Origin: Octopus vulgaris
Lineage: Eukaryota
DNA: 64,000 nt
NCBI GenBank assembly: GCA_951406725.2
Contig: OX597830.1
Location: 25,606,001-25,670,000 of the forward strand
Direction of reading: 5' to 3'
Within the stretch, counting starts at the first letter, position 1. Each line of letters begins with the position of its first letter. Below, in pieces: positions 708 to 50,813 of this stretch. Position numbers and translations under genes: made by a program. Under the pieces are notes generated by a model, which saw only the letters and a program-made list of their open reading frames with translations, did no database searches and was not told where the DNA came from.

Positions 708-1158
708 CTCCTTCTTTCCTTCTTTCCCGAGCGTCCAATAATACTATATTTGTTCCACGTTCTCGCGTTGTTGTGTTTTTTTGTGCTTTCTTGTTTGGAT
801 TAACTATATATATATATATATATATTGTTGCTATTGTGTTAAACTGTCGTATGTCCAACTTTGACAAATGCGTTTTTTTTTCAATATTTAATTTTGCTTG
901 CAATAACCAGTTCTTTTGGTCAAGCTATTTTATCTCCAGACGCTTCAGATGCCAAGTTATGAGATTGTCGAAGTGTAGTACAACGGTTTAGCATTTGCAA
1001 AAATATTTCACTCTGTGAAAGTTTCTAGTTCGAATCACACGTGTCTCGAGATGTGCCGAAGATTTTCTATTTTGGATATATTTGGGGTACTTAGGTCTGC
1101 TCAGGACTTAGTTCTTGCTTTTTCCATGGGTTTGAGTAAGTATTTCATTTATGTCTTA

Positions 1159-1229
1159 CGTATTTATCGCTGACGAGGGGAAAATTCTTATGAATTAACC
1201 CCGAAATTGGGACCAATACGGTAATAACG
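1159..1229 (+). ncRNA. Type I hammerhead ribozyme with intact core
   Basis: Stem I TTATCG(1164-69)/CGGTAA(1219-24); CTGACGA 1170-76; stem II GGGG/CCCC with AATTC/GAATT extension; GAAA 1203-06; stem III ATTG(G)/(C)CAAT; predicted AUA cleavage after 1218. Confidence 0.85.
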
Positions 1230-1374
1230 GATTTTTTAGAAATTTCTATCGGCTTGTTTCGAGACGTATAAATTATAATGGTTATTGACAATTTTGTCTT
1301 TTTTTCGGAATATTTGGCATTAGAATTTTATTTTGTAAGTTATATATATATATATATGTAAGTGTGTGTATATG

Positions 1375-23959: not shown

Positions 23960-24890
23960 GAAATATAATGTCACGTTGAAAAGCATGACGTATAGAAACA
24001 AATGAAATATCAAGACTAAACAACCTGCCACTATCCCCACATACATCCAGAAGATGGGGCCGAGATGGATGTGAAAGGTTAAGGAACTTAGGAAGTTATT
24101 GCTGTAGATAAACATATAAGCTTATAAAGAAATAAGTAAAATTTTAGAAATATAATGTCACGTTGAAAAGCATGACGTACAGAAACAAATGAAATATCAA
24201 GACTATACAACCTGCCACTATCCCCACTTACATCCAGAAGATGGGGCCGAGATGGATGTGAAAGTTAAGGAACTCAGGAAGTTATTGCTGTAGATAAACA
24301 TATAAGCTTATAAAGAAATAAGTAAAATTTTAGAAATATAATGTCACGCAGAAAAGCCTGACGTACAGAAACAAATAAAATATCAAGACTATACAACCTG
24401 CCACTATCCCCACTTACATCCAGAAGATGAGGCCGAGATGGATGTGAGAAGTTAAGGAACTTAGAAAGTTATTGCTGTAGATAAACATATAAGCTTATAA
24501 AGAAATAAGTAAAATTTTAGAAATATAATGTCACGCAGAAAAGCCTGACGTACAGAAACAAATGAAATATCAAGACTATACAACCTGCCACTATCCCCAC
24601 TTACATCCAGAAGATGGGGCCGAGATGGATGTGAGAAGTTAAGGAACTTAGGAAGCTATTGCTGTAGATAAACATATAAGCTTATAAAGAAATAAGTAAA
24701 ATTTTAGAAATATAATGTCACGCAGAAAAGCCTGACGTACAGAAACAAATGAAATATCAAGACTATACAACCTGCCACTATCCCCACTTACATCCAGAAG
24801 ATGAGGCCGAGATGGATGTGAGAAGTTAAGGAACTTAGGAAGTTATTGCTGTAGATAAACATATAAGCTTATAAAAGAAATAAGTAAAAA
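23960..24890. repeat. Tandem array of five 186-187-bp units
   Basis: Unit starts (gaaatataatgtcacg) at 23960, 24147, 24333, 24520 and 24707; copies are nearly identical. Confidence 0.95.
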
Positions 24891-32469: not shown

Positions 32470-33365
32470 ATTATTATTATGTGGAAGATAACGACTTTTA
32501 ACTTGTCGCTCCAAGATGCACCACAGATGCTCAATAATATTAAAATCTGGAGATTGAGCGGGGCACTCCATGTGTTGTAATTCACAACGATGCTCTTCAT
32601 ATCAATTCTTAACCACACGAGAGATGTGTATTGGAGCATTGTCATCTTGGAAGCTGCACTCACCACCAGGGAATAATGCCTGGACCATGGGAAGGACTTG
32701 ATTTCCCCAAACATTCAGGTAATCATTGCTGTTGATCCTACCATGCAGGGCAACGACTGGACCAAGAGAATTTCAAGAAATGACTGCTTAATCATCCGTC
32801 ACAGACTCTCCTCAGTGCTCTCTGTAGGAAGACGGCAGTTAGGATTAAAAGCTTCTCGTGGTTGCCTCCATACATAAACTCGCCCTGCAATGGGGAAAGA
32901 GAAAAAACTGGACTCGTAGGAGAATATGACTTTCTTCCATTGGTTAGTCGACCAACCCTTGTGATCTCTACCCCAGTTCAGCCTTTTCTGAATGTTTTGA
33001 CGAGAAAGCAGAAGTTTCCTAATGGCAGCTTTTCCACGATATCCAACTTTATTGAGCTAACAGCGAACAGTTTTGATCGAAACTGGGCTAGTTGATTCAA
33101 CTCTGCAGTCACTTTCGGGGCAGTTGTTCGGTGATTTTTCATTACAATGCGATTCAAACTCTCGTCGGTCTCTTTCAGTGAGATTCGAAGTCCTGTCGGA
33201 ATTACTCCTCCTGCTGGAGGTTTTGCTCTGCTTCTCAAATTCAGTCATGATCCTTGATACGGTAGCTCTCGAAAAACCAAGGGGTTCAGCTGTTCTGGTG
33301 ACGGACGCTCCTGTCATTTGAGCTCCAACAATTTGTACTTTTTCGAACTCAGTGAGGCTTTGAAC
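32470..33365 (-). mobile_element. Decayed Tc1-like (DD34E) transposase
   Basis: N-terminal SLTEFEKVQIVGAQMTGASVTRTAEPLGFSRATVSRI (paired-like HTH); FQDDNAPIH and SPDFNIIEHLW motifs across frameshifts. Confidence 0.85.
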
Positions 33366-33394
33366 AAGTCACTATACTTTACATTGCTCCACTT

Positions 33395-40355: not shown

Positions 40356-43025
40356 GGTATTGGCAACATTAATGACAATGGTCAGAGACTACTTGAATTT
40401 GCACATACCATAACCTGTGCATCACTAACACATTCTTCGCCAACAAGACATCCCACAAAGCATCTTGGAGACATCCAAGATCTCACCTCTGGCATCAGCT
40501 GGATCTCATCGTTACACAAAGATCCTTTCTGAATTCTGTTCAACTGACCCGTAGTTACCACTGCGTGGATTGTGACACAGATCATTCACTAATAAGAAGC
40601 AGGATGAGGATTCTGCCTAAAAAAGTCCATCACTCCAAGAAAATGGGCCGACCACGCATTAACACTGCCAGAACCTCGGACCCTACACTGCGACAATGTT
40701 TTGCTATTTCTATCAAAGTTGCCCTCAGTAGCTGTCCAACCTCCTCTGCTGGAAGTAGGTGGAATTATATCCGGGAAGCTTTGTATACCACATCAAGAGA
40801 TACTTTCGGCATGAGAGAAGGGCAAAACCCAGATTGGTTCAATGCTGGGCTCTCAGAGCTGGAAACAGTTATCGAAACAAAGCGTGCAGCTGTGATGCAA
40901 TACAAGAGTGATTCTTCTACAAAGTCACTCGAAGAACTCAAAAAGGCAAGAAATAAAACCCAACTGACTGCCAGACGCTGTGCAAATCGGTATTGGCAGG
41001 AAATCTGTCAGAGTATCCAGTCAGCTGCTGACAATGGCGACACCCGTGGGATGTATGCCGATTTGAAGAAGGCCCTTGGTCCATCCACAACCAAGTCAGC
41101 CCCTCTGAAATCAACTACTGGAGATCTCATCAAGGACCAAAGCAAGCAAATGGATAGATGGATGGAGTACTACCAGGATCTGTACTCACGGGGGACCACG
41201 GTAGCTGAGGCTGCAATCGAGGGTGTCAAGATCTTGCCAGTCATGTGTGAACTTGACAGTCTGCCATCTATAGCAGAGCTCACCAAGGCTATTGACTCCC
41301 TAACGAGTAACAAGACTTCTGGAAAAGACGACATCCCCTTAGAGATCAAAACCGGCAAAAATACCATCCTGTTTCGGCACCTTCATGAGCTTCTGTGTCA
41401 GTGCTGGGAAGAGGGTACAGTCCCTCAGGATATGCGGGATGCATTACGCTTTACAAAAACAAAGGTGACCGTGGTGATTGTAACAATTACCGTGGAATAT
41501 CTCTTCTAAGCACTGTTGGAAAGGCCTTTGCTCACATTATCCTGTCCAGGCTACAACTGCTTGCTTCTCGAATTTATCCAGAATCGCAGTGTGGCTTTAG
41601 AAGAAGCAGATCAACTATTGACATAATATTCTCCATACGCCAACTTCAGAAGTCCAGAGAGCAGAAAATGCCATTATATATGGCCTTCATTGATCGGACA
41701 AAGGCTTTTGATTTGGTAAGTAGAAAAGGCCTCTTCATCCTGCTTCAAAAAATCGGATGTCCACCAAAGCTGCTGAGGATCATCAAATCTTTCCATGATG
41801 ATATGCAAGGCACCATACAGCACAATGGTTCAACATCAGCCGTCTTCCAAATAAAAAACGGGGTGAAGCAAGGTTGTGTCCTTGCTCCTACATTATTTGG
41901 CATCTTCTTCGCTGCTGCTGTCACATGCCTTTGAGACATCAGATGATGGAGTGTTTCTGCACAGTAGAAGTGATGGAAAACTGTTCAATCTCTCTCTCGC
42001 GTCTGCGTGCCAAGACCGAAATCAGAAGCGTCCTGATGAAGGAGATGCTATTTGCTGACGATGCCGCTCTGGTATCACACACAGAAGGAGCCCTACAAAA
42101 GCTCATCAACTGTTTTGAGCAAGCATATGGCAACTTTGGCTTAGTTATCAGCCTCAAGAAGACCAACATCATGGGTCAGGCTACATCGGACATCCCAAAC
42201 ATACATATTGGAGACCACAGACTACAGGAGGTGGAGGAGTTTACCTATCTTGGCTCTACCGTCACCTACAACCTATCCCTTGATGCTGAGCTCAATATAC
42301 GCATTGGCAAGGCAGCTGCTGTGATGGCCCAACTCTCCAAACGGGCATGGGACAACAGTAAGCTGACCAAGACCACAAAAATGAAGATTTACCAGGCATG
42401 TGTACTTAGCACTATACTGTATGGAAGTGAGACTTAGACACCATACACACGCCAAAATCCTTCACATCAAATGGCAGAATCATGTCCCCAACAAAGATGT
42501 CCTCAAGCAAGCAGGAATACCAAGCATGTTTGCACTCCTCACACAAAGACGTATGAGATGGCTTGGACATGTTAGCCGTATGGAAGATGGCAGAATCCCC
42601 AAGGACATACTCAACGGAGAGCTTGCTAGGGGCACTAGGTCTGTGAGAAGACCGTTCTTACGATACAAGGATGTTTGCAAAAGAGACATGAATGCCTGCA
42701 ACATCAATATTACCAACTTGGAAGCAGTTGCCAGCAACCGTGGAGATTGGCGACGTACCGTAAAAGAGGTAACACAAAGGAGTGACATAGAGAAAGAGGA
42801 GAAATGGAAAGACAAGAAAAGACGTCAACAAAAAACTATGACATTACAACCAGCAAGGCAAAGTCTTCGCTACATTTGCGACACCTGCCAGAAGGAGTGT
42901 TTGTCCAGGATAGGACTATACAGCCACAGCAGGAGATGTATTAGGACATGAAATGTAAAAGCCGGACTAGATTATTTTATGCGCATCTCCATTGTCTCCC
43001 AAGACAAAAAGGATGCCAACAACAA
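40356..43025 (+). mobile_element. RTE-clade LINE, 5'-truncated within the AP endonuclease and frameshifted
   Basis: IGNINDNGQRLLEF and DCDTDHSL (endonuclease); NYRGISLLS, PESQCGFR, AFIDRTKAFD, GVKQGCVLAP, MLFADD (RT); RRMRWLGHVSRMEDGRIPK; C-terminal CDTCQKECLSRIGLYSHSRRC; 3' end ccattgtctcccaagacaaaaaggatgcc(aac)n. Confidence 0.95.
40565..42951 (+). pseudogene. RTE endonuclease/reverse-transcriptase ORF broken by several frameshifts and stops
   Basis: Overlapping ORF-track pieces 40565-41509, 41395-41934, 41874-42437 and 42400-42951 carry consecutive RT motifs. Confidence 0.9.
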
Positions 43026-44859: not shown

Positions 44860-45488
44860 GGTGAGTCAATTTCTGGACCTTTTCTATTTTTTAACGAAAC
44901 AATATTTATGGAAGTATGCTGAACAAACATATAGGAGATTATTTCCTGAATATGATGCTGAGAACACAACAGAATTATACAAAGAAAATGAAATAGGAGG
45001 GAACCTAAAAACAAGTGTTACTGTTGTCCCATCTACTTATGAAGGTAATCGACTCATTCGTGAATACACAAGCGCAATGAAGAAAATGAATGAAGAGCCC
45101 AAGATGGTAACAGATGGATTTGAAATCTCTAAAGAATTCGGGTACTATTTAAGAAGAGTGATCCCGGTGCGCGGCACTCGCGTACTCGCGCATCCGCGCT
45201 AGCTAGTCGTGACTAGTCGATCCTACAACGACTACCTAGCAAAGTAAATAAAACAGAAAATAAATAATTTTTTTACACAAAGTAAATAATTTTTTTAAAA
45301 CAAAGTAAATAAAGCACAAAAACGTAAAGTAAGGATCGACTAGTCACGATTAGCTAGCGCGGATGCGCAAGTGCGCGCACCGGACCACTCTTTTTAAGTA
45401 GTACCCGTGAAAACAGGTTTTTAACTGGTTTTGAGAATTACTTATACTTGAACTCGGTTTTGGGAATTATCGGTTTTTTGCGAGCCCT

Positions 45489-46944: not shown

Positions 46945-47950
46945 ATACACACACAAGTTAGAAGTAAATAGACAACCCATAAAACATTGTTTTCTGTTTA
47001 TTCTAACTTGTAAAGGCTTATATTTCTTATTAAGTGACATTTTTATGTTTCAGATTCTATATGTGACTGTTTAATCATGCCATGTACAAAAGAAGCCTTG
47101 GAACTGTCTGAATTTCAAAAAGGCCATATCGTGGGTCATTCTGAAGGTGGATATAGTCAGCGTAAAATCGCAGAAAACCTTGGGGTCCCGCTTTCTACAG
47201 TTAATAGAGTGATTGTGCAATTCACCAAGGAGGAGAAGGAGTTGACATCACCTTGTCCAGATCAACCAGGGCCATCTGACTGGACCATTCTCTTTGCTAA
47301 GAGAAGTGTGGAGGATAATTCTCGTTGCAAGACCTTTGACAATGCAGAGCAAGTTGATGTCAGTCCCAGAACAGTTGTCAGGTATCTCCACAAACTTGGT
47401 TAGTATGGCAGAGCTGAAAGAAGGAAGCCAATATGAAGAGGAGAAAAGATTGGGCCAGTGAGATGGTGGAGAGGCCATTAGCATTTTGGGACACTGTCAA
47501 ATTATCTGATGAGTCCAGATTTGCTGTATTTCCTAACAGTGGTCGAGTGTAGGTCTGGAGACTCTGTGATCAAGAATTTGATGTGAAAAGATTGCAGCCA
47601 ACAATGAAACACGGCAGCTATTCTGTGATGGTCTGGCGAACAATTTGGAGCAATGGTTGATCAGAGCTAGTGGAGTGTGAAGGAAAGATAAACTCAAGTA
47701 AATATGTGTGTATATAGCAGAAAGGACTCCTTCCAAACTTCTCCAGTGGTGAAATGATTAAAGTAGACTCCCTATTTATGGAAGATGGGATTCCTTTTCA
47801 CACGGTTAAAATGACCCAAGATTTGTTGGAAAAGAATGGCATTAGAAAGCTTCCATAGCTAATCCAGTCACTAGGTTTGAACCGTAAAGAAAACCTCTGG
47901 GGCATAATGGGCAGGACATTTCATAAACAGAATTAAAAATATCAGTGAAC
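46945..47950 (+). mobile_element. Decayed Tc1-like (DD34E) transposon
   Basis: [38 protein letters not shown] (HTH); [30 protein letters not shown] and LNRKENLW catalytic-domain remnants. Confidence 0.88.
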
Positions 47951-48455: not shown

Positions 48456-49800
48456 TGCAGACATGTTTCAGGGTTGTTGCCCTTTATCAACACACACAAA
48501 AATACACACACATGAAACCTTATAGACGGCCGTATGCTGTTACGACACAACTAACACGGTCAGCAGCGGTGCCGACGATGGCAATAACAACAACAATTAC
48601 CCCGATGGCAACACTGTGGACGAACACATATTAGTATGGCGATAACACGTATGCGTGTGTGTATGTGCGTGAGTCATAGTTTTTAGCAGTAGTGTGGCCT
48701 TCCCCTCAGCCCCAACATCTCACCCCATTGTGCTGCTGCTGTCTTAAGACCCGTATGTGTGTTCGTCCACAGTGTTGCCATCGGGGTAATTGTTGTTGTT
48801 ATTGCCATCGTTGGCACCGCTGCTGACCGTGTTAGTTGTGTCGTAACAGCATACGGCCGTCTATAAGGTTTCATGTGTGTGTGTATGGGTTCGCTTCGTA
48901 TGAATCCATGCCCTTTATATAGTTTTATTCATTTTATCTATCTCTGTCTTACATTTATCACAGGTATGTGGCTGATATATTTATATATTCGTTTATTTAT
49001 CTATATATTTATTTACTTATTTATTTATCTATTCTTTTAATGCATCTATCTCCATTTCTCATATATATCGCAGGTAGGTGCATATGTCTATTGTGCGTGT
49101 ATTATCTGTATGTATCTGTGTATTATTTACGGCTTTTTCTTCCTTCTTTCCTCTCTCTTCACATCCCTATTTTCTTAAGTCATGTGGTGTGGTGGTGGGT
49201 GCTACTGCTCCATTCATGTTTTCAATTGATGCTCGGTCTGTCTACTGTGATGTGTGTAGCTTCTGTAATCTGTCTAAGTGTCGTGTCAGTTCTGTGTCGA
49301 TAGTACTTTAACCGCTATGCTATTAATCGAGCCTCCATGTTCTGCCTGAGCATATTGGTAGAGCATGACCAGCTTTTCCCTTCTTTGAACTCTCGCCAAT
49401 ATTCATTTATACGCTCTTCTATGTTGCGTGCAGTCTCTCCTAGATAGGTACCTTTTTGCCGGGTCTTAGGACAGCAGCAGCACAATGTGGTGAGATGTTG
49501 GGGGCGAGAGGTTGGAGCTGAGAGTAAGGCCACACTGCTACTAAAAACTATGACACACACACGCACGCACACACACACACACCACACACACAAACAAGGA
49601 CATAAAGATACACGTCTTAGAAGAACAGATTGGAGAGGAGCATGAACACACACAGGAACGAAAAGTGTCACTGAAGAGGTCACAGATGTGTGACGAAAGA
49701 TTTCCAAACAATCGACAGGCATCAAAATAATAAATATAATAAAAATAACAGTAATAAACGAGTGAAGAAAAATATAGTGCGTGTGTTTATTTGGCAAAAA
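48456..49800 (-). mobile_element. Penelope-like element remnant: GIY-YIG fragment, inverted repeat and decayed hammerheads
   Basis: Minus-strand TYLGETARNIEERINEY near 49395-49450 resembles GIY-YIG Y(I/V)GET.R.L..R..EH; inverted arms 48504-48630 and 48754-48885; hammerhead-like motifs at 48456-48494 (-) and 49671-49704 (+). Confidence 0.6.
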
Positions 49801-50191
49801 TAATAATAAATAAAATGATCATCCCGAAGTACAACAATATATATATATATTATATAATGCGCGCGCATACACAAAGACACACAGACACACATGAATATAT
49901 ATTTATATAGTTATTAATAAGTGATTATGAATCGGGACAACATATTTTAGAAGTTCTCTGTTAATACACCAGGCTAATAATATTTTTAGATTGGAAAAAA
50001 TCTGTGCGTATTCTTGTGGCAGGATCCAAGGTTATAGTTCCTGGCTATACTAAACTGTAAATCCATGGTTGCATTCTCAGTTGTACTTATCCTTTTCACA
50101 GACCAATATAAAAAGTATAAACAATGAGCATTATATATTGCTTCATTGCAAAGAAGTTTGCAATGACCAAAATTAATGGCTTGTCTCATAC

Positions 50192-50276
<85 letters not shown>

Positions 50277-50448
50277 CAACTTATAAATATCCTATATTAG
50301 TAGTAGATTTATTACTATTCGCTATAGGGACTGGTAACCACTATAAGGTGGTTATATTTGGATATATCTGGGGTACTTATATGTACTCATGAGTTTTACT
50401 TCGGCTTCTTTTCCATGGGCGCATGTAAGTATTTCATTTATTTCTTAT

Positions 50449-50517
50449 CGTATTTTCTACTGAAGAGGAAAAAATCTATGAGATTAATTCCGAAATTGAT
50501 TCAATATAGAAATTACG
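50449..50517 (+). ncRNA. Type I hammerhead ribozyme with intact core, homologous to 1159-1229
   Basis: Stem I TTTCTA(50454-59)/TAGAAA(50507-12) plus CGTA/TACG; CTGAAGA 50460-66; stem II GGAA/TTCC with AATCT/AGATT extension; GAAA 50492-95; stem III ATTG/CAAT; predicted AUA cleavage after 50506. Confidence 0.85.
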
Positions 50518-50756
50518 AACTTTAAAAAAAAATTCTGTTGACTGGCTTTCCTCGATTTCTGCACAACGTATTTCTGTAGTGGGTATATAATAATATATGG
50601 AAATTGACGATTTAAAAGTCTGTTATCAGCATATTGGCATGGAAATAATTTTCTTTTGCCCTTGTTTATAAGTTGTTTATAATTTTAACCTTTAAAGGTA
50701 TTTTGATATGCTGCCACTTTTTGATGAAGTTTTTTTTTCTGTCAATAAAACTTCAT

Positions 50757-50813
<57 letters not shown>

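What the first reader, a model, noticed from the sequence alone, without database searches (positions are those of the whole stretch)
50355..50650. Second intact type I hammerhead copy with compensatory helices
Seen: CGTA-t-TTTCTA-CTGAAGA-GGAA-aa-AATCT-atg-AGATT-aa-TTCC-GAAA-TTG-att-CAA-TA-TAGAAA-t-TACG. All helices are Watson-Crick and the core is perfect, although the flanks are visibly diverged from the copy at 1.1 kb. Inference: probably still self-cleaving if transcribed; inside an intron or UTR it could cut a host plus-strand transcript.
Basis: partly seen in the sequence, partly recalled or inferred. Interest (0 to 1): 0.75.

Follow-up and report, generated by a model that had tools for sequence, protein, structure and literature searches.

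The report
Solo retrozyme copy, Penelope-type insertion
This is a real hammerhead-ribozyme sequence, but it is one ageing copy of a protein-free repeat scattered through this animal genome and likely pasted into TA runs by Penelope-like jumping genes, so it is probably an ordinary genomic passenger rather than a regulator of a host gene.

Summary
The motif is real: a canonical type I hammerhead, core 50460-50505, predicted cut after 50506; 2 hits in the window, 0 in 30 shuffles. It is not a special copy. It lies in a single-ribozyme monomer (50289-50763) of a dispersed ~512-nt non-coding repeat (family B; 1,864 first-look candidates). The copy at 1.1 kb belongs to a sister family (A). An architecture pattern has 1,085 exact genome matches against 21 for the control. 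Compensatory changes lie between families. Among 30 family-B copies 18 keep the core, and the core mutates at the background rate, so intactness needs no selection here. Insertions end on (TA)n at two fixed sites, with inverted arms using opposite sites in 21 of 22 scorable loci, as expected of Penelope-like elements. Young Neptune-type elements share the target, and one is fused to a family-B fragment. Helix III is marginal in a monomer. No host exon was found; transcription and cleavage are untested. The scan reported this kind of element before on other DNA of this genome. Verdict: new member of the non-LTR retrozymes.

The parts
50188..50276 (.). (TA)n run, left side of the insertion target
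50277..50288 (-). Very short inverted arm starting at fixed end 'site 2' (unit position about 416)
   Evidence: classified as site 2; same arm start in L009, L010, L012, L014, L018, L025
50289..50763 (+). Main arm: one family-B monomer spanning unit positions 496 round to 504 (slightly more than one unit), ending near fixed end 'site 1'; 9-nt terminal redundancy
   Evidence: L001 1450-1924; ends
50347..50352 (+). Junction where about 45 nt present in sibling copies are missing
   Evidence: contigs bridge it with extra letters, table 5
50454..50459 (+). Hammerhead helix I, 5' strand
   Evidence: (pair probability 0.89-0.97)
50460..50466 (+). Catalytic core C3-A9; G5 = 50462
50467..50491 (+). 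Helix II: 4 bp, AA/AA internal loop, 5 bp, 3-nt loop
   Evidence: AA/AA architecture genome-wide
50492..50506 (+). GAAA box, short palindromic helix III, U16.1, A17; predicted cleavage after 50506
50507..50517 (+). Helix I 3' strand, unpaired U1.7 (50513), rare T50514, outer pairs
50760..50813 (.). (TA)n run, right side of the insertion target (first bases shared with the arm end)
1008..1342 (+). The other window copy: 5'-truncated family-A monomer ending at site 2 on (TA)n; core at 1170, A17 = 1218

Best explanation
This is a solo, 5'-inverted copy of a ~512-nt non-coding hammerhead repeat (a non-LTR retrozyme family) sitting in a TA run, likely inserted by a Neptune-type Penelope-like retrotransposon and probably decaying without selection since. 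Shown: motif, family, unit length, partial tandems, two fixed ends on (TA)n, opposite ends on the two arms, background mutation rate in the core. Inferred: source copies in tandem are transcribed; the ribozyme (perhaps as a dimer, since helix III is palindromic and weak) cuts out unit-length RNA, which a host ligase would circularise; the Penelope GIY-YIG nicks (TA)n and its RT primes from both strands at two fixed sites on a circular or tandem template. This copy's long arm covers more than one unit and crosses the cut site intact, which needs such a template. With one ribozyme it cannot release a unit by double cleavage. If a plus-strand transcript runs through it, it might cut once, weakly (my odds: about 0.6 at 10 mM Mg2+, about 0.35 at 1 mM as a monomer).
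For: Family: 51 matches from 40 scored of 1,864 candidates on many contigs; unit 498-513 nt from end-to-end spacing in 5 loci; GC 0.30; circular fold z -4.7 for a sibling unit and -6.5 for this copy against 25 shuffles each. Ends: right end at site 1 or 2 on a simple repeat in 23 of 29 B and 27 of 30 A loci; both outer ends scorable in 22 of 59 loci, 21 with different sites, two-sided binomial p 1e-5 at 50:50. PLE insertions are described with partial tandems, an inverted 5' copy, a tail at one end only and TA bias (PMC8557442 passages). Partner present: 148 GIY-YIG matches; 781-aa ORF with RVT_1 and C-terminal GIY-YIG, open in 8 of 8 fetched copies, ending on (TA)n at two sites about 40 nt apart. 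One second-family PLE is fused at its 5' truncation point to about 45 nt of family B. No selection on the core: 18 of 30 intact, 62% expected at the core's own 3.6% rate; singletons 6 against 7.0 expected from base-matched flanks.
Against: No nucleotide homology between the unit and the pLTRs of the PLE families sampled, unlike the Xenopus case. Stem positions in family B show fewer rare changes than flanks (1.1% vs 2.7%, p 0.0009; base-matched singletons 9 vs 16.9, p 0.028), which may mean many selected source copies or some selection on structure; family A shows none (p 0.35). The copies sampled were the best matches to the window copy, so intactness is overestimated. The fusion is 1 case in about 61 distinct GIY-YIG loci and could be a deletion between neighbours; PLEs and retrozymes do sit side by side in one TA run (L021, L072). 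Folding models do not score the core's non-canonical contacts, so the weak helix III is not proof of inactivity. Circles and expression are not shown.
Confidence: 0.8

Rival explanations
1. The unit is the pseudo-LTR or 3' end of an autonomous Penelope-like family not yet sampled, and this is a 5'-truncated insertion of it.
For: Same target, inverted arms and two-ended structure as PLEs; Xenopus retrozymes resemble pLTRs.
Against: Upstream of the unit lies the unit's own 3' end (head-to-tail), not coding DNA. tblastn with a PLE ORF hit 4 of 90 repeat loci (82 distinct places), none fused to an arm. PLEs here carry minimal-type hammerheads, this one is canonical.
Confidence: 0.1
2. This copy has been kept by the host as a cis-acting cutter of an intron or UTR on the plus strand.
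For: Core and all helices intact; stems slightly under-mutated in the family; the rare T50514 strengthens outer helix I.
Against: Half of the siblings (15 of 30) are equally intact in core and stems. At least 57% of the window is repeat; the only Pfam matches over cut-off among 101 frames were transposon domains; one exon-like frame is multicopy (86 matches).
Confidence: 0.05
3. The repeat spreads as DNA (satellite-like expansion or rearrangement in TA runs) and the hammerhead is a relic.
For: Tandem junctions are present in genomic DNA; the core decays at background rate in inserted copies.
Against: Dispersed on most chromosomes-scale contigs, 5'-truncated, with fixed 3' ends and inverted arms; two-sided changes keep helices I and II across families, which implies selection on the RNA fold in source copies.
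Confidence: 0.05

Closest known systems
Metazoan non-LTR retrozymes (Cervera and de la Pena 2020, PMC7229834; passages and section 14 seen)
   Same: Canonical type I hammerhead in a low-GC, protein-free repeat unit with predicted self-paired fold; PLEs in the same genome; PLE mobilisation proposed.
   Different: Unit 512 nt against 150-450 nt; mostly monomers and partial tandems with inverted arms in (TA)n; helix II extended beyond an AA/AA loop; circles and cleavage shown there, untested here.
Vertebrate retrozymes as non-autonomous PLE derivatives (Li, Clavereau, Pollet 2026, 10.64898/2026.07.22.740005; parts 1-3 of 5 seen, supplements not seen)
   Same: Monomers dispersed over chromosomes as offspring of tandem sources; unit within their 51-972 bp range; co-occurrence with Neptune PLEs.
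   Different: There 24 of 57 families resemble known repeats, mostly pLTRs; here no pLTR homology was found. This copy fails their 'active' rule of two consecutive ribozyme units.
Penelope-like elements, Neptune type (PMC8557442 passages; PMC4209133 parts 1-2 of 4)
   Same: Partial tandems, inverted 5' copy, tail at one end only, TA-run targeting, type I hammerhead.
   Different: No ORF; tail 93-96 nt rather than 30-40 nt; canonical rather than minimal hammerhead.
Canonical dimer-dependent type I hammerheads of axolotl and newt (PMC7229834, PMC4209133 passages)
   Same: Helix I 6 bp, helix II 4 bp, short palindromic helix III; modelled double-hammerhead (-34.9 kcal/mol) beats two misfolded monomers (-31.4).
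   Different: Helix III here has 4 pairs counting A15.1-U16.1, more than their 1-2; the model's best dimer (-39.7) is a different, inactive fold.

Membership tests
Canonical type I hammerhead ribozyme | Conserved core CUGANGA / GAAA / UH with G10.1-C11.1 | tested here: met
Canonical type I hammerhead ribozyme | Helix I about 6 bp, helix II about 4 bp, short helix III, supported by covariation | tested here: met
   26 sequences, 95.3% of cells paired, 7 of 19 pairs with two-sided change (none in helix III), slid controls 31-47%; the pair count itself does not exceed shuffles (65 of 500), and core columns were fixed by the search pattern
Canonical type I hammerhead ribozyme | Loop 1-loop 2 contact (unpaired U1.7 with a loop-2 A) | tested here: inconclusive
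   U1.7 opposite U and the AA before helix IIa 3' strand are in all 26 aligned rows; the contact itself is taken from PMC11875169 passages, where loop 2 is terminal, not internal
Canonical type I hammerhead ribozyme | Match to an Rfam hammerhead model | tested here: not met
   0 matches at gathering score; E-value mode not run
Canonical type I hammerhead ribozyme | Site-specific self-cleavage | not testable with these tools
   needs in vitro assay
Non-LTR retrozyme | Short low-GC non-coding unit, one type I hammerhead per unit, head-to-tail copies | tested here: met
   GC 0.30, unit 512 nt, partial tandems in family B, a three-unit tandem in a related family; no ORF of 100 aa inside the arm apart from frames overlapping the TA run
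Non-LTR retrozyme | [quoted passage not shown] | tested here: not met
   this locus has one ribozyme; it is a monomer offspring
Non-LTR retrozyme | Expressed as linear and circular unit-length RNA | tested here: inconclusive
   no holder on record as RNA; contigs only
Non-LTR retrozyme | Target-site duplication longer than 4 bp when present | tested here: inconclusive
   cannot be read inside (TA)n
Autonomous Penelope-like element (pLTR of) | RT plus GIY-YIG ORF joined to the repeat | tested here: not met
   0 of 90 repeat loci
Autonomous Penelope-like element (pLTR of) | Sequence homology to a pLTR; minimal-type hammerhead | tested here: not met
   only the PLE families fetched were compared
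Host-domesticated intronic hammerhead (amniote type; defining features recalled) | Single or few copies, conserved locus inside a host gene | tested here: not met
   many copies; no host exon found; cross-species synteny not tested

The most novel reading that the evidence does not exclude
This genome records the retrozyme mobilisation step directly: a Neptune-type Penelope RT primes from both strands of a nicked TA run at two fixed sites on one circular retrozyme RNA, and at G000:C4:100776821-100777331 it was caught switching from its own RNA onto family-B RNA at the hammerhead core. That would turn the proposed PLE-retrozyme partnership into a testable mechanism with named priming sites and partner.
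Probability: 0.4. Interest if true: 0.55.

Novelty: new member of a known kind. Interest (0 to 1): 0.27.

Why it matters
The single copy matters little: it is one of about a thousand core-intact hammerheads of this build in the genome. The family matters somewhat more. How animal retrozymes get back into DNA is still proposed rather than shown in the papers read here, and these insertions give fixed priming sites, an opposite-arm rule, a resident young Neptune-type partner and one fused junction, all testable in a reporter assay. The families also give a natural series for asking whether an internal AA/AA loop in helix II can supply the tertiary contact and whether cleavage needs a dimer. I found no paper on these cephalopod-type families in searches for hammerhead+Penelope+octopus and octopus+retrozyme (listings and abstract starts only, plus passages of PMC8557442), nor on twin priming in PLEs; the library lacks most subscription journals.

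Tried and rejected
Rfam at gathering thresholds: no match. RNA evidence: no RNA holder listed; four contig runs laid on the element show family sequence and head-to-tail joints, but kinds are guessed or unknown and such joints exist in genomic DNA, so no evidence either way on expression or circles. One related-family contig stops at 50505 next to the cut site, but contig ends cannot show RNA ends. Read coverage of the wider locus was not obtained. Host exon search: 92 of 95 unmasked frames plus 9 frames gave only transposon domains over cut-off; frames under 50 aa and repeat-masked frames were not scanned. The exon-like frame at 44864-45196 is multicopy. Further PLE-retrozyme fusions: none in 90 loci. 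First end classification was discarded because a loose motif matched distant sites; one search replaced it, and L006 was left out there as the same locus as L004. Pol III promoter: family A has a B-box-like motif (consensus recalled), but runs of 4-6 T precede the ribozyme, so Pol III read-through was rejected. 5' splice-donor-like motif upstream of helix I: not kept in all related families. Earlier findings by sequence and near this place: none. Literature search on template switching gave nothing relevant in the listing.

Full report
Observation. A general type I descriptor (helix I at least 4 bp, CUGANGA, helix II, GAAA, helix III, UH) finds two sites on both strands of the window, core starts 1170 and 50460, with H17 at 1218 and 50506, and none in 30 of 30 shuffles made in 200-nt blocks. 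Rfam has no match at gathering thresholds. The build fits the canonical metazoan type I hammerhead described in PMC4209133 (parts 1-2 of 4 read): helix I 6 bp, helix II 4 bp, short palindromic helix III. Helix II is extended by an AA/AA loop and 5 more pairs.

It is a repeat. The window lies in a 2.8-Gb genome of 227 contigs; earlier notes call it a cephalopod, which I did not verify. A 321-nt query gave 1,864 first-look candidates, 40 scored, best siblings 89-94% identical: family B. The 1.1-kb copy gave 5,109 candidates, 40 scored, best 95-97%: family A. Candidates are not copy numbers. A pattern for core plus AA/AA loop has 555 + 530 exact matches against 11 + 10 for the reversed control; by my count about 15 of the first 100 listed are family B. 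Head-to-tail spacing gives units of 498-513 nt for B (5 loci) and 465-469 nt for A (2 loci). The first 30 pattern loci hold A, B, further related families at about 79-90% identity, and 2 loci without a match to either unit.

Compensation is between families. On 26 aligned hammerheads (2 window copies and 24 of the 30 pattern loci; L133, L145, L147, L150, L151, L154 left out as truncated, fused or unrelated) 95.3% of cells pair, 7 of 19 pairs change on both sides (5 in helix I, 2 in helix II, none in helix III), covariation 0.305 against 0.170 shuffled and at most 0.111 slid; the count of pairs does not beat shuffles (65 of 500), and relatedness inflates the other measures. This points to selection on the fold in source copies. 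It does not point to selection on this copy. Among 30 family-B loci, 18 keep all 13 core positions and 15 keep core and stems; in family A, 24 and 16 of 30. Core singletons in B are 6 against 7.0 expected from base-matched flanks. Stems are somewhat under-mutated (9 against 16.9, p 0.028), a result against pure neutrality that family A does not repeat (p 0.35). The window copy is 4.6% from the family majority, lacks about 45 nt and owes its long outer helix to T50514, where 28 of 30 copies and nearly all laid contigs have A.

Would it cut? In the folding model helices I, IIa and IIb have probability 0.89-0.99 in four contexts up to 900 nt, but helix III has 0.00-0.01 because core bases 50461-64 pair with 50500-03. 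The active monomer scores -12.3, the same without helix III -12.1, the competing fold -15.7 kcal/mol; a double-hammerhead dimer scores -34.9, better than two competing monomers but worse than the model's best dimer at -39.7. Such models ignore core contacts. An unpaired U1.7 and loop-2 adenines are kept in all 26 rows, matching a rate-enhancing contact described in PMC11875169 (passages). The AUA triplet obeys the NUH rule (recalled). Invertebrate retrozymes mostly cleave well while axolotl ones need dimers (PMC7229834), and 8 of 9 predicted Xenopus dimers did not cleave. Activity is plausible, not safe to assume.

Insertion anatomy. The element sits between TA runs. Its main arm, 50289-50763, covers unit positions 496 round to 504, more than one unit, and a 12-nt inverted arm lies to its left. 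Both families end on simple repeats at two fixed sites, 96 nt apart in B and 93 nt in A. The right end is at one of them in 23 of 29 B and 27 of 30 A loci. Where both outer ends could be scored (22 of 59 loci) the arms use different sites in 21. Earlier notes of this scan describe the same two-site pattern in other families here; they shaped this test and are not independent support. PMC8557442 (passages) describes partial tandems, inverted 5' copies, a 30-40-bp tail at one end and TA bias for PLEs.

Partner. PF01541 has 148 matches among 150 scored. [quoted passage not shown] No pLTR homology with units A or B was found. In one of about 61 distinct GIY-YIG loci (L088 = L106) about 45 nt of family B, ending at the start of the core and carrying the same minor variant as the window copy, is joined to the truncation point of a second PLE family with a short microhomology, all between two TA runs; the other copies with upstream sequence continue as PLE there. 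Template switching explains it; so does a deletion between neighbours, since separate PLE and retrozyme insertions share TA runs in L021 and L072. No second fusion was seen in 90 repeat loci.

Host transcript. At least 57% of the window is repeat. Of 101 frames scanned, only transposon domains passed a Pfam cut-off. No run is on record as RNA, and flank coverage was not obtained. A long intron or non-coding transcript is not excluded.

Verdict. A real canonical hammerhead in a monomer of a non-LTR retrozyme family, working like those of coral and mussel, with Penelope-type insertion scars. Family-level membership is met on sequence features; the active-copy rule is not met at this locus; expression, circles and cleavage are untested. 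Supplements of the 2026 preprint and of the other papers were not seen and may list related families. Interest 0.27.

Noticed in passing
L088 / L106 (G000:C4:100776821-100777331, minus strand): About 45 nt of family B fused to a 5'-truncated Neptune-type PLE at a short microhomology, between two TA runs: template switch or deletion between neighbours.
   Followed up: partly
L095:2342-4684 and L094-L101: Young PLE family with an open 781-aa RT/GIY-YIG ORF, an upstream ORF of 308-479 aa in 6 of 8 copies, and a minimal-type hammerhead with the U3-A8 core variant in its pLTR (variant described in PMC4209133).
   Followed up: partly
L106-L130, about 200-250 nt after the GIY-YIG stop: Second PLE family carries a hammerhead-like motif with an extra U in the first core box in most copies; activity unknown.
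   Followed up: no
window 49671-49706 and 676-702: Two minimal-type hammerhead-like motifs (extra base before helix II; one with a C at position 4), probably pLTR remnants; similar motifs occur in L089 and L115.
   Followed up: no
window 49318-49480, minus strand: Decayed GIY-YIG-like fragment (Pfam E 0.16), not matched by the 781-aa PLE in tblastn.
   Followed up: partly
window 44864-45196: Open frame without Pfam match but with 86 genomic relatives, some in frames up to 461 aa, beside an inverted repeat at about 45170-45375: an unclassified mobile element.
   Followed up: partly
window 50426-50432 and 1136-1142: Splice-donor-like motif about 25 nt upstream of helix I in families A and B, lost in some related families.
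   Followed up: no
L147 and L150: Hammerheads of the same AA/AA build in repeats with no match to units A or B; L150 shows a 493-nt tandem period.
   Followed up: no
window 40397-42951; 2040-2876; 32802-33368 and 47038-47403: Fragments of a LINE (RVT_1), a zf-RVT element and Tc1/mariner-like transposases.
   Followed up: no
L078: A GIY-YIG match that looks like a host exon (SLX1-like, name recalled) rather than a PLE.
   Followed up: no
window 23960-24889: 187-bp tandem repeat, 5 copies, 97% identical.
   Followed up: no
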